Shown: piece by piece, positions 2,571-9,729 of the stretch
How the letters are laid out: each line of letters starts with the position of its first letter
Position numbering within the stretch: the first letter of the stretch is position 1
Virus record (IMG/VR): IMGVR_UViG_2846005711_000006
Length of the DNA stretch: 64,000 nt
Strand: one strand, 5' to 3'
Source: an uncultured virus (IMG/VR IMGVR_UViG_2846005711_000006)
Lineage: Duplodnaviria > Heunggongvirae > Uroviricota > Caudoviricetes
Program-made: the position numbers and the translations under genes
The notes under the pieces: generated by a model
Databases searched by the model: none
The model's input: only the letters and a program-made list of their open reading frames with translations
What the model was told of the DNA's origin: nothing

Positions 2571-3656
2571 TCAGCTTAAGTCTTTGTTTTCATACTCATC
2601 AGCTGATAAACCGGTTGCTTGATAGACAATATCAGTAGAAAATCCTGCTTTAAGTAGATTTTTTGCAACTGTTATCTTAGCTTGTTTTTCACCCTTCTCC
2701 GCGCCAATTTGAATACCTTCCGCTCTGCCTTTTTGATGGCCGATTTGGATGCCTTCTAGTCTACCTTTTTCTTGACCTAATCTAAGCCCCTCATCAAATT
2801 TTTCAGCAAAAGCAGCAATCTCATCCATTATACGTTTTTTCCTTTGCTCATATGCTAGTAATTCTTCTTCTGACCAGTTAAACTTATTCATCTCTTCATA
2901 AGCTCGTTTTATTATTACGTCACTACCAACTATCTTATCTAGATCCTCTTCCCTTGTTTCTCCTGCATAACGAAAAAAATAACACCACTTTTCGACTATA
3001 TTTTCTAATTGATCTTCTTGTGTTTTTGGGAATTTCGGTAATTCTATGAAAGTAAAACTAAAGTCCTTCAGGTCATGTTCAAATGTTTTTCTATCAAGAG
3101 TAACGTGATCGGATTTGTACTCTGGTTTATTAGGAAATAGGATAAAATCAGTGATAGCAATAAAGACAACTTCCTTCAGATCTTGATATTGACCACCTAC
3201 GTCAGCTTGACTGGAATAAGCTTTGGCGGCATAGTATTGTGCACGTTTTTCGAAGCCAGTAGTTCTAGCGACTTGCATCTCAACAATTGTTTGAACACCT
3301 TTAGAATCTCTACAAAGTACATCAACAATATTTTCCTTTTTAGCAGCAATATCAGGATTTTGAATGGGATTTAGAAACTGCACATTTTCTATTTTAGCTT
3401 CATCAGTAAGGCCTAGAATGTCATTGAGAAAGTGGATAAGAATGCCTTTATTTTTTTCAGTGCCAAATATTCTTTTGAACGAGTAAGAGTTTAGTGGACT
3501 GAGATATTTTCCACTAAACTCTCCTCTAGGAACCGTACTTGAAAGTTTCCCTTCATACGGCTCGAGCCATCTTAAGTCCTTTTCTCGAGAACCGGCAACA
3601 GCTTCCTTCAAATATTCTGGCATTTCAAATTCCTTACTAGGATTAACATTAATCAT
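2571..3656 (-). CDS. Rpn-family PD-(D/E)XK nuclease with intron-derived N-terminus (copy 1)
   Basis: FKRIFG...DVLCRD...IVEMQ...RAQYY motifs. Confidence 0.9.
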   Translation of the reverse strand: MINVNPSKEFEMPEYLKEAVAGSREKDLRWLEPYEGKLSSTVPRGEFSGKYLSPLNSYSFKRIFGTEKNKGILIHFLNDILGLTDEAKIENVQFLNPIQNPDIAAKKENIVDVLCRDSKGVQTIVEMQVARTTGFEKRAQYYAAKAYSSQADVGGQYQDLKEVVFIAITDFILFPNKPEYKSDHVTLDRKTFEHDLKDFSFTFIELPKFPKTQEDQLENIVEKWCYFFRYAGETREEDLDKIVGSDVIIKRAYEEMNKFNWSEEELLAYEQRKKRIMDEIAAFAEKFDEGLRLGQEKGRLEGIQIGHQKGRAEGIQIGAEKGEKQAKITVAKNLLKAGFSTDIVYQATGLSADEYENKDLS

Positions 3657-4433
3657 ATCTTATCATCCTCATAAAGAGAAGGATTATTTGATCTACGTTT
3701 TTCAAAGTAGGCATACCATTCTTTATCGTAGGGATTTGCCTCAGCTTGAATTTTCTTGTGGCGACGAATTGGTACGCTTGTTGCTTGAAAGAGTTCCTTC
3801 CACTCAACTGTACCTTTATTCTTAGTCAGCGCTGCAAAGCACCATCTTCTGGCTTCTTTTGTTTTAAAGTATTTCTCCTTAATCCAGCGTAAGCCTTTAT
3901 TAGGGTGTCTGCGTTTTGACCATTGCCATAAGGCTTTAAAAATCTCAGAATCCACTTTCTCATAAGCTTTTCTTGCGCATATTCCCCTGTGGTAATAGAC
4001 CCACCCTCGAATTTGAGGTGTGAGCAGTTCTATTACTTTTTCTTGGGTTGCTGCGCAGTTCTTACGAATCAAGCACCGGATGCGCTTCAGAAGTCGGTTT
4101 GTACTTTCTGCTGAAGGTTTGATGATTATCTTCCTTTCGTACTGTCTGACCTAGAAAATCAAATCCCTGTTCTACGTGTGTGATCTTGGTTTTTCCTGTG
4201 GATAGAGTTAACCCTCTGTCGCTGAGGAAATCCTCTACTAGCCTTTTAACTTTAGTCTCAAGAATTTCTTTTGATTTTCCAGTTACTATGAAGTCATCCG
4301 CGTAGCGAATCACGTGCACACCATATTTCTTGCGTTTTCTTGTTCCCGAAATGTTTACTGATAACATTTTCGAAACCATCAAGGGTCAAGTTAGCAAGTA
4401 CAGGGGAGATTACCCCGCCAACAATGTTGCAAA
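2728..4433. repeat. Left arm of 1706-bp inverted repeat (partner 7918-9623)
   Basis: Identical translated ORFs on opposite strands; matching coordinates sum to 12351. Confidence 0.95.
3478..4419 (-). mobile_element. 3' half of group II intron (RT fragment 4062-4382, maturase 3653-4072, DV 3530-3563, DVI 3481-3526), copy 1
   Basis: GGVISPVLANL and YADD motifs, maturase GWVYY...LWQWSKRRH, DV hairpin. Confidence 0.9.
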
Positions 4434-4570
4434 AAACGTAAAATTAGAGAAAAGCATTTCTCGAAAACTTCTATGTCCAAAAACAAGAGTGCCATTTATT
4501 TATAGTGCCAACAATCAATTAACCATCAGTTTCAATGAATGATATGAACATATTATTTCAAGGAAAGTTC

Positions 4571-6874: not shown

Positions 6875-7931
6875 GAGAAAGGATCAGTTAATTGAAGGAG
6901 TTTATTAGGAGGAAGAGAAAGTTGGGGAAGTGTGTCGTCGGCTAAACACTATGTCTATTATAACACGAACAGGAAAAAAGTGCTGGGATAGAAGTGTGAT
7001 TTGGGGTATGTTAAAAAATCCTGCTTACAAAGGACAAGCAGCTTTTGGTAAAACAAAAGTAGGTACAACATATAAGACCACAAAAACATTCTTGTGAACA
7101 ACCGAAAGATAATTACTCTACCTATTCTGTTGAAAAAGCAAATTGGATTTATGTTGAAGTGCCAAATATAGTGGACGAGGATGTATTTGATATAGTTCAA
7201 GAACAACTAGCTGAAAATAGAAAAATAGCCAGGACAAGAGAAAGAGGAGCAAAACATTCACTACAAGTATGTAAGCGTTGTCGTTATGCATATTACGGAA
7301 GTCCTGTAAGAAATAAGCGAGGAGAAAAAATTGATCATTATGCTTATTATCATTGTATAGGTAGAGATTCTTACCGTTTTGGTGGTAATAAAATTTGTGA
7401 TAATAAACACATTCGTACAGATGCATTAGAAACAGCCGTGTGGGAAGAGGTTAAGCATTTATTGAAAAATCCAAATAGGGTTTTAGAAGAATACAGGCGT
7501 AGACTTTCAGAGCTTAAAAAATCATCATGGGATCAAAAAAGCGATTTACTAGAGAAACAAGAAAATAAATTAAAACGTGGTATTGCTAGACTTATTGATA
7601 GTTATGCTCAATAATCAAGAAGAATTTGAACCACGAATTAAAGCAATGAAACAAAGTTTAAAAACAATTGAAGAGGAGAAGAAAAGGATATTCGATCAAA
7701 AGAAATTAAAACAGGAATTAACTTTGGTTGTAACCAATTTAGAAGACTTTTCTTCCAATATTACATCAAACCTTGATAACGCAGGCTGGCTAACTAAACG
7801 TGATATTATTAGAACGTTAGTCAAGAGAATTGAAATTAACCTTGAGGACGTAAATGTGGTATTTCGTGTAAAAGAGCTACCAAACTCTCCTGGAAATAAT
7901 CGAGAAGAAAAGAAAAATTTGCAACATTGTT

Positions 7932-8873
7932 GGCGGGGTAATCTCCCCTGTACTTGCTAACTTGACCCTTGATGGTTTCGAAAATGTTATCAGTAAACAT
8001 TTCGGGAACAAGAAAACGCAAGAAATATGGTGTGCACGTGATTCGCTACGCGGATGACTTCATAGTAACTGGAAAATCAAAAGAAATTCTTGAGACTAAA
8101 GTTAAAAGGCTAGTAGAGGATTTCCTCAGCGACAGAGGGTTAACTCTATCCACAGGAAAAACCAAGATCACACACGTAGAACAGGGATTTGATTTTCTAG
8201 GTCAGACAGTACGAAAGGAAGATAATCATCAAACCTTCAGCAGAAAGTACAAACCGACTTCTGAAGCGCATCCGGTGCTTGATTCGTAAGAACTGCGCAG
8301 CAACCCAAGAAAAAGTAATAGAACTGCTCACACCTCAAATTCGAGGGTGGGTCTATTACCACAGGGGAATATGCGCAAGAAAAGCTTATGAGAAAGTGGA
8401 TTCTGAGATTTTTAAAGCCTTATGGCAATGGTCAAAACGCAGACACCCTAATAAAGGCTTACGCTGGATTAAGGAGAAATACTTTAAAACAAAAGAAGCC
8501 AGAAGATGGTGCTTTGCAGCGCTGACTAAGAATAAAGGTACAGTTGAGTGGAAGGAACTCTTTCAAGCAACAAGCGTACCAATTCGTCGCCACAAGAAAA
8601 TTCAAGCTGAGGCAAATCCCTACGATAAAGAATGGTATGCCTACTTTGAAAAACGTAGATCAAATAATCCTTCTCTTTATGAGGATGATAAGATATGATT
8701 AATGTTAATCCTAGTAAGGAATTTGAAATGCCAGAATATTTGAAGGAAGCTGTTGCCGGTTCTCGAGAAAAGGACTTAAGATGGCTCGAGCCGTATGAAG
8801 GGAAACTTTCAAGTACGGTTCCTAGAGGAGAGTTTAGTGGAAAATATCTCAGTCCACTAAACTCTTACTCGTT
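7932..8873 (+). mobile_element. 3' half of group II intron (RT fragment, maturase 8279-8698, DV, DVI), copy 2
   Basis: GGVISPVLANLTLDG at 7932, YADD at 8047; frameshifted; no HNH domain. Confidence 0.9.
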
Positions 8874-9729
8874 CAAAAGAATATTTGGCACTGAAAAAAA
8901 TAAAGGCATTCTTATCCACTTTCTCAATGACATTCTAGGCCTTACTGATGAAGCTAAAATAGAAAATGTGCAGTTTCTAAATCCCATTCAAAATCCTGAT
9001 ATTGCTGCTAAAAAGGAAAATATTGTTGATGTACTTTGTAGAGATTCTAAAGGTGTTCAAACAATTGTTGAGATGCAAGTCGCTAGAACTACTGGCTTCG
9101 AAAAACGTGCACAATACTATGCCGCCAAAGCTTATTCCAGTCAAGCTGACGTAGGTGGTCAATATCAAGATCTGAAGGAAGTTGTCTTTATTGCTATCAC
9201 TGATTTTATCCTATTTCCTAATAAACCAGAGTACAAATCCGATCACGTTACTCTTGATAGAAAAACATTTGAACATGACCTGAAGGACTTTAGTTTTACT
9301 TTCATAGAATTACCGAAATTCCCAAAAACACAAGAAGATCAATTAGAAAATATAGTCGAAAAGTGGTGTTATTTTTTTCGTTATGCAGGAGAAACAAGGG
9401 AAGAGGATCTAGATAAGATAGTTGGTAGTGACGTAATAATAAAACGAGCTTATGAAGAGATGAATAAGTTTAACTGGTCAGAAGAAGAATTACTAGCATA
9501 TGAGCAAAGGAAAAAACGTATAATGGATGAGATTGCTGCTTTTGCTGAAAAATTTGATGAGGGGCTTAGATTAGGTCAAGAAAAAGGTAGACTAGAAGGC
9601 ATCCAAATCGGCCATCAAAAAGGTAAAATTGAAGTCGCTAAAAACTCACTCAAGGCTGGTGTCTCTATTGATGTTATCGCTGAAATCACTGGCCTTTTGG
9701 TAGATGAAATCAAAAAGTTAAGGATTTAA
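8695..9729 (+). CDS. Rpn-family PD-(D/E)XK nuclease with intron-derived N-terminus (copy 2)
   Basis: Identical to 2571-3656 except for the C-terminal tail. Confidence 0.9.
   Translation: MINVNPSKEFEMPEYLKEAVAGSREKDLRWLEPYEGKLSSTVPRGEFSGKYLSPLNSYSFKRIFGTEKNKGILIHFLNDILGLTDEAKIENVQFLNPIQNPDIAAKKENIVDVLCRDSKGVQTIVEMQVARTTGFEKRAQYYAAKAYSSQADVGGQYQDLKEVVFIAITDFILFPNKPEYKSDHVTLDRKTFEHDLKDFSFTFIELPKFPKTQEDQLENIVEKWCYFFRYAGETREEDLDKIVGSDVIIKRAYEEMNKFNWSEEELLAYEQRKKRIMDEIAAFAEKFDEGLRLGQEKGRLEGIQIGHQKGKIEVAKNSLKAGVSIDVIAEITGLLVDEIKKLRI
8788..8870 (+). ncRNA. Group II intron domains V (8788-8821) and VI (8825-8870, bulged A 8867)
   Basis: 34-nt GAGCCGTATGAAGG-GAAA-CTTTCA-AG-TACGGTTC with AGC triad; DVI stem GAGTTTAGTGG/CCACTAAACTC. 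Confidence 0.9.

What the first reader, a model, noticed from the sequence alone, without database searches (positions are those of the whole stretch)
2728..9623. 1.7-kb inverted duplication centred exactly on a serine-recombinase element
Seen: 2728-4433 and 7918-9623 are reverse complements. Both ends of the recombinase element join the same 3' half of the intron at the (Q)GG codons; the 5' half of the intron is absent on both sides. Inference: this arose by recombination between two oppositely oriented insertions, or by recombinase joining of like half-sites. The central 3.5 kb could invert, and a reciprocal 5'half-element-5'half locus may exist elsewhere. An assembly artefact cannot be excluded.
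Basis: partly seen in the sequence, partly recalled or inferred. Interest (0 to 1): 0.72.

Follow-up and report, generated by a model that had tools for sequence, protein, structure and literature searches.

The report
Recombinase element joining like intron halves
A dead copy of a 2-kb jumping gene with mirror-image ends has been left joined to the back halves of two copies of the same intron, a scar of the flank-swapping that this little-known element family goes through in Wolbachia chromosomes.

Summary
The inverted repeat is real: 2728-4433 and 7918-9623 match at 1706 of 1706 bases. Each arm is the element's own 23-bp terminal repeat, a 2-bp AT core, the 3' half of a group II intron and 749 bp of the Rpn gene that the intron interrupts. 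The centre is a dead copy (8 short deletions plus an IS110) of a 1,956-bp IS-like element encoding a large serine recombinase. Its terminal repeat occurs in 11 of 60 Wolbachia genomes, with about 22 copies in one. It inserts in either orientation at the DNA for PQGG-x-x-SP of intron reverse transcriptases.

Like-half joins recur. Of 26 complete elements touching an RT half, 3 are 3'-element-3' (this one included), 1 is the reciprocal 5'-element-5', and only 4 keep matching halves. The nearest genome has the element reversed against the same right flank.

Best reading: a recombination scar between insertions in two intron copies, not a switch and probably not a misassembly. No read spans the locus. 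Whether RecA or the recombinase made the join is open. I found no published description of the family, but earlier scan notes record it repeatedly.

The parts
1833..2558 (-). Pyr_excise-family gene with an Rpn-like tail; outer left flank, single copy in the window
   Evidence: PF03013. Rpn-to-Pyr_excise neighbourhoods match continuously across the arm end at 76-78% in G001.
2571..2727 (-). C-terminal tail of the left Rpn gene, in frame with the arm and different from the right tail
   Evidence: A contig of run X17 covers 2523-2757 with 0 differences but only 30 letters inside the arm.
2728..3476 (-). Left arm, outer part: second exon of an Rpn (PD-(D/E)XK_2) gene, 749 bp
   Evidence: PF12784; mirror of 8875-9623.
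3477..4408 (-). Left arm: 3' half of group II intron A (RT C-terminal part, maturase, domains V-VI), with two 8-bp deletions
   Evidence: The 3' end is inferred from the 5' exon seen in L017 and L018.
4409..4410 (.). 2-bp AT core (inferred crossover site), left
   Evidence: AT in 66 of 96 main-family ends; same position in the intact intron L017.
4411..4433 (.). Left terminal inverted repeat of the element, 23 bp, perfect
4535..4822 (+). Small ORF overlapping the start of the recombinase gene; kept in intact copies; function untested
   Evidence: no Pfam match.
4725..7960 (+). Large serine recombinase pseudogene; 8 deletions of 7-9 bp, split by IS110; its last frame runs through the right terminal repeat and stops in the flank
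   Evidence: The intact relative P0001 (553 aa) has PF00239, PF07508 and PF13408.
5272..6909 (+). IS110-family element inserted in the recombinase gene, 1638 bp (ends ambiguous by 2 bp)
   Evidence: NF033542 above its cut-off. The joint 5271>6910 is seen in 4 of 4 runs laid; 4 of 4 G001 copies lack it.
7918..7940 (.). Right terminal inverted repeat of the element, 23 bp
7941..7942 (.). 2-bp AT core, right
7943..8874 (+). Right arm: 3' half of group II intron A
   Evidence: 99.9% identical to both G001 copies over the part compared.
8875..9623 (+). Right arm, outer part: second exon of the Rpn gene; the gene continues to 9729 with its own tail
   Evidence: TIGR01784 and PF12784; 10 differences from the G001 orthologue over about 750 bp.

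Best explanation
The locus is a recombination scar made through a mobile element with symmetric ends. SHOWN: the centre is a 1,956-bp IS-like element (large serine recombinase plus a small ORF) with perfect 23-bp terminal inverted repeats. It inserts with no target duplication at a 2-bp core inside a loosely palindromic target, often the PQGG-x-x-SP codons of group II intron RT genes, in either orientation. In copy-rich Wolbachia chromosomes the flanks of different copies are exchanged. INFERRED: two Rpn genes each held a copy of intron A. The element came to be joined to the 3' half of one by its left end and to the 3' half of the other by its right end, through opposite insertions or a flip at the terminal repeats. 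Homologous (RecA-type) recombination between element copies then put both 3' halves on one element and sent the 5' halves elsewhere or lost them. Identity of the Rpn exons reflects duplication or gene conversion between paralogues. The centre has probably flipped once between the 1.7-kb arms. The local recombinase is dead, so the structure has no present function beyond being a passive substrate for inversion.
For: Terminal-repeat pattern in 11 of 60 genomes of the genus; 1 control match in all. Of 45 main-family elements with both ends, 26 touch an RT half: 4 keep matching halves, 1 has halves of two introns, 3 are 3'+3', 1 is 5'+5', and 17 have one RT half only. G076 has 3 of 3 matching, in both orientations. 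G081 has 1 of 13 matching, yet 5 5' halves and 5 3' halves of one intron type, so exchange conserves halves. In G081 L119 the 987-bp arms end at the intron's 3' end and go on into different genes, so two intron loci were joined. The two 5' halves at G084 L101 differ slightly (99%). G001 has the element's left end on the same intron-Rpn-ankyrin flank that carries the right end here. All 4 G001 copies are identical and carry the same 8 deletions as the window copy, which points to homogenisation without an enzyme in cis. Run X1 holds the intact intron-Rpn sequence as one unbroken contig at depth 57.7, against 17.5-36.4 for neighbouring single-copy stretches. Recombination between 23-bp terminal repeats is documented in Wolbachia IS (PMC3004938).
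Against: No read or contig listed spans the locus, and the junction of the element's right end with intron A was not seen outside the window. G001 lacks an orthologue of the left flank (best 86%), so the ancestral left locus is not observed. G001's Rpn paralogues differ from the arm at 10 and 112 positions, so the perfect identity of the two Rpn exons needs an extra step. In G081 the ends on one intron type split 6 left to 4 right, not the 5:5 that recombination in element bodies alone would keep; this needs a flip at the ends, or loss and gain. Depth ratios from assembled contigs are noisy.
Confidence: 0.6

Rival explanations
1. The recombinase itself made the join. Because both arms of the element's site are identical and the AT core is its own reverse complement, an integrated end can recombine with another end or with an empty intron target, giving like-half joins and inversions without RecA. 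This would have happened before the local copy died, or in trans.
For: Perfect arm symmetry and an AT core. Cores differ between the two ends of fresh insertions in G076, so mismatched cores are tolerated. Shuffling is greatest in G081, where 21 copies have an open frame. The 6:4 end imbalance.
Against: G076 has 8 of 11 copies with a full open frame yet 3 of 3 RT insertions unshuffled. Shuffling also fits copy number and RecA. All copies seen in the window's lineage are dead. Serine integrases usually need a directionality factor to use attL and attR (recalled).
Confidence: 0.2
2. One-step inverted duplication or conversion: replication or repair primed at the 23-bp terminal repeat copied the single existing arm onto the other end, and rejoined in the repeated GIQIG-coding tail of a paralogous Rpn gene.
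For: The arms are 100% identical through 749 bp of host gene. The outer end lies in a 30-bp motif repeated nearby (D14). G001 has only one such junction.
Against: The parallel case in G081 stops at the intron end with different exons, and the G084 arms are not identical. The left Rpn runs in frame into its own tail and a Pyr_excise gene, a native arrangement. X1 suggests two intact intron-Rpn copies (weak).
Confidence: 0.12
3. Assembly artefact: the repeats (element, intron, Rpn) were mis-joined or polished to identity.
For: Zero differences between arms. No spanning piece in 4 runs. X1 shows no element-intron A junction (unbroken contig across 7941).
Against: The same kind of arrangement stands in single-contig genomes G081, G084 and G001. 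The left-end junction with intron A is in G001 at 99.8% over 1730 bp. Contigs of X15 and X17 begin at 7941, as expected if more than one sequence precedes the 3' half.
Confidence: 0.08

Closest known systems
Transposons moved by a large serine recombinase: Tn4451/Tn4453 (TnpX), Tn5397 (TndX); 'multi-targeting' LSRs of Durrant et al. (PMC10083194, passages read). Details of TnpX and TndX are recalled.
   Same: One large serine recombinase, many target sites, a 2-bp core and no target duplication.
   Different: Only 1.96 kb with no cargo; perfect terminal inverted repeats; AT core; preference for an intron RT motif; no DUF4368 match. The passages read name no intron or reverse-transcriptase target.
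Phage WO serine integrases (sr1WO-sr4WO typing; PMC9203015, passages read)
   Same: Closest named relatives of the enzyme: 51-59% amino-acid identity to the five best Wolbachia phage records.
   Different: No phage genes lie between the ends; many copies and many targets. Only 26% identical to the prophage recombinase in this window. That paper links RT genes to WO rearrangements but the passages read name no such element.
IS-mediated ectopic recombination and terminal-repeat inversion in Wolbachia (ISWpi1; PMC3004938, parts 1-2 of 3 read)
   Same: Inversion of an element between 23-bp terminal repeats (2 of 22 loci there), and rearrangement by recombination between copies.
   Different: Here the targets are themselves repeated (intron copies), so exchange yields long perfect inverted repeats of like halves. 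The enzyme is a serine recombinase that could do the exchange itself.
Invertible switches (Hin/Gin, shufflons; recalled)
   Same: A segment between inverted recombination sites with a recombinase gene inside.
   Different: The recombinase is broken here, and flipping the centre changes neither arm.

Membership tests
Large serine recombinase | Resolvase + Recombinase + zinc-ribbon domains | tested here: met
   PF00239, PF07508, PF13408 on the intact relative P0001; PF00239 and PF13408 on window pieces.
Large serine recombinase | Open frame in the window copy | tested here: not met
   8 deletions and an IS110 insertion.
TnpX/TndX-type LSR transposons | LSR is the only recognisable recombination enzyme; multiple targets | tested here: met
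   ORFs of the intact copy; 67 distinct flanks among 96 ends.
TnpX/TndX-type LSR transposons | 2-bp core, no target duplication | tested here: met
   G076 insertions in RT genes and the G084 insertion in a head-protease gene read through with only the 2-bp core.
TnpX/TndX-type LSR transposons | GA core (recalled); DUF4368 clade marker; cargo or mobilisation genes | tested here: not met
   Core AT in 66 of 96 ends, GA in none; no DUF4368 at E<=0.001; no cargo.
TnpX/TndX-type LSR transposons | Excised circular intermediate | not tested
   No joint of the two ends was listed, but those samples may hold only dead copies and contigs drop rare forms.
WO prophage integration module | Phage genes between the attachment sites | tested here: not met
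   Ends are 1,892-1,962 bp apart in uninterrupted copies.
Group II intron | Domains V-VI and RT/maturase | tested here: met
   RF00029 twice; PF00078 and PF08388.
Group II intron | 5' splice site and domains I-IV in cis | tested here: not met
   Absent in the window; present in the intact G001 copy L017.
Site-specific invertible switch | Active invertase and both orientations in one population | tested here: inconclusive
   Local enzyme dead; orientation differs between the window and G001; no spanning reads.

The most novel reading that the evidence does not exclude
The integrated ends of this element stay live, direction-blind recombination sites. The recombinase swaps flanks between any two ends or empty targets, tolerates mismatched cores, and so acts as a site-specific shuffler of Wolbachia chromosomes that cuts and re-pairs group II intron halves at one conserved RT codon. 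The window's palindrome and the 12 of 13 unmatched RT-touching copies in G081 would be its products.
Probability: 0.25. Interest if true: 0.7.

Novelty: new variant of a known kind. Interest (0 to 1): 0.45.

Why it matters
Wolbachia genomes are known to rearrange at mobile elements and RT genes (PMC9203015, PMC11376236; passages read). This locus points to a specific agent that annotation lists only as a recombinase: an IS-like element that splits introns and leaves their halves on different copies. It explains long perfect inverted repeats that look like misassemblies. It also gives a testable substrate for how a serine recombinase with a symmetric site controls direction, or fails to. The locus itself is a dead scar, and the element family has been noted before in this scan, which limits the surprise.

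Tried and rejected
My early idea that element ends never join 5' intron halves came from G001 alone. It fell: 13 ends of complete elements sit on 5' halves.

A TA core was considered and dropped: AT fits the intact target and 66 of 96 ends.

Searches that gave nothing: the own genome is not held; the nearest virus record G002 has no match; the terminal-repeat pattern has 0 matches in viral contigs; the element DNA has no plasmid match by blastn; scan notes by DNA sequence and by the first word set were empty.

Reads did not decide the artefact question. Three of the 4 runs are contigs, the fourth is Hi-C read at about 1 in 100, and 600 pieces and 82 loose ends were not shown.

Outside Wolbachia, 88 loci were screened with a crude exact-repeat script: 6 had no recombinase hit, 44 no repeat of 10 bp or more, and several of the 38 repeat calls are spurious. 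Three possible like-half cases (L168, L175, L127) are not counted as support because in two of them arms run to contig ends.

Rows dropped before the 45-element count: 17 of 62 two-ended elements whose ends differ from the main pattern (13 of the G025/G082 subtype, 3 of a second subtype, 1 with a changed end) and all single ends.

PMC4853749 and PMC13439711 (passages) showed nothing on this element.
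Full report
Observation. Window 2728-4433 and 7918-9623 are reverse complements at 1706 of 1706 positions. The window is Wolbachia-like: an Rfam Wolbachia sRNA, phage structural genes (named from recall), and best phage matches to Wolbachia WO records. Its own assembly is not held, so comparisons use the nearest genome G001 and 60 genomes of the genus.

Anatomy. Read outward from the centre, each arm has four parts: 23 bp that are the element's own terminal inverted repeat; the dinucleotide AT; 932 bp of the 3' half of a group II intron; and 749 bp of the Rpn gene that the intron interrupts. 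An intact copy of the same intron in G001 (L017) starts after the first 15 codons of an Rpn gene and reads PQGGIISP across the site. So the G-G-V codons at the window's junctions belong to the element, and the crossover is in the AT that follows. Beyond the arms the two Rpn genes finish with different in-frame tails.

The centre. Window 4411-7940 is a copy of a 1,956-bp element, 98.5% identical to an intact copy in G081 apart from 8 deletions of 7-9 bp and a 1638-bp IS110. The intact gene encodes a 553-aa large serine recombinase, 51-59% identical to the five best phage WO records but 26% to the prophage recombinase in this window. The terminal-repeat pattern occurs in 11 of 60 genomes; G081, G025 and G076 have 47, 23 and 22 ends. 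Relatives occur in other phyla (80 loci kept of 120). In a crude screen, 5 of 82 recombinase-bearing loci had RT halves on both sides, 3 in one orientation and 2 in the other.

Targeting. Among 96 main-family ends the core is AT in 66. The 67 distinct flanks match the element's arm at 4.0 of the first 9 positions against 2.1 in the background, mainly C at positions 3, 5 and 6. The target is therefore a loose palindrome that the RT motif happens to fit; 19 of 45 complete elements have no RT half on either side. In G076 the two ends of a copy often carry different cores. I infer one comes from the target and one from the donor, as 2-base overhangs joined with a mismatch would give.

Flank exchange. 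Of 45 complete main-family elements, 26 touch an RT half. Four keep the two halves of one intron type (3 of 3 in G076, in both orientations; 1 of 13 in G081). One joins halves of two introns. Three are 3'+3': this window, G081 L054 and, with two different introns, G001 L013. One is 5'+5' (G084 L101). Seventeen have one RT half only; 3 of these, in G001, have an IS4-like element next to a short remnant of the 5' half. G081 L119 is the cleanest parallel: 987-bp perfect arms round an intact element, ending at the intron's last bases and continuing into different genes. Copying one arm would not give that; it joins two intron loci.

The nearest genome. In G001 the same intron-Rpn-ankyrin flank is joined to the element's left end, with another intron nested in the intron's domain V region, while the right end carries the 3' half of a different intron. 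In the window that flank carries the right end. The simplest path is an exchange with a second insertion followed by one flip of the centre between the arms; an assembler's choice of orientation would look the same. G001's 4 copies are identical and dead, and it has a single 5' half of intron A, in the intact copy.

Reads. Four runs were laid. All show element copies without IS110. X1 and X17 show the element's ends on the two halves of another intron. X1 has the intact intron-Rpn sequence unbroken, at roughly twice the depth of single-copy neighbours. X15 and X17 contigs begin at 7941. No listed piece spans the locus, and the right-end junction with intron A was not seen outside the window. 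This is the main gap.

Mechanism. I put 0.6 on homologous recombination between element copies in two intron-bearing Rpn genes, 0.2 on the recombinase joining like half-sites, 0.12 on one-step copying and 0.08 on artefact. For homologous recombination: dead but identical copies, conserved numbers of halves in G081, and published recombination between 23-bp terminal repeats in Wolbachia (PMC3004938, parts 1-2 of 3 read). Against it as the sole route: the 6:4 split of left and right ends on one intron type in G081, which is weak evidence.

Literature. Eight searches listed no paper whose title or abstract start describes this element or like-half joins. I read passages of PMC10083194, PMC9203015, PMC11376236, PMC13439711 and PMC4853749, and no supplements; supplementary tables of PMC10083194 could hold relatives. 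Subscription papers and ISfinder were not searchable. Earlier scan notes record the same family several times; they are unchecked and one is marked as partly fallen. The lines shown do not mention like-half joins or flank shuffling.

Verdict. A real and explicable scar of a little-known LSR mini-transposon: a new variant of a known kind, interest 0.45.

Noticed in passing
window 4835-7611, 8007, 8213, 5603, 6487; L086, L101, L102: Mobile genes here decay by deletions of almost fixed size. All 8 gaps in the element are 7-9 bp, both gaps in the intron 3' half are 8 bp, and the IS110 has an 8-bp and a 9-bp gap; microhomology is 0-3 bp. Some identical deletions recur in G001, G023 and G084 copies. 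One literature search for this found nothing. Unexplained.
   Followed up: partly
L087-L098 (G025), L104-L106 (G082): A subtype of the element with unequal ends has a fixed TT core in element orientation in 13 of 13 two-ended copies and no RT flanks. Several flanks read like ankyrin-repeat sequence (recalled), which suggests retargeting. It is a natural control for the symmetric AT type.
   Followed up: partly
L013 12699-15097 (G001): A second group II intron-like RT element is nested in the domain V region of intron A at the site matching window 8807/8808. L120 shows another intron start inside a 5' RT half at 11142.
   Followed up: no
window 27611-30133: A second, unrelated large serine recombinase (683 aa, with a C-terminal HTH) and a small ORF lie among phage genes, next to an IS110 paralogue (25879-27466) and the Rfam match WsnRNA59.
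   Followed up: no
window 1-525 and 9897-10335: Both outer flanks carry a paralogous module of a transposase remnant (HTH_Tnp_1) and an ankyrin gene, in direct orientation, 67-88% alike.
   Followed up: no
window 1882-2013: The Pyr_excise gene ends in an Rpn-type tail 88% identical to the right Rpn tail. Rpn paralogues in G001 are mosaics with shared patches.
   Followed up: partly
L103 (G084): A clean insertion of the element in a prophage head-protease gene whose paralogue is window 31494-32531.
   Followed up: no
window 60535-60678: Long 12-bp tandem run in the tail of another Rpn gene.
   Followed up: no
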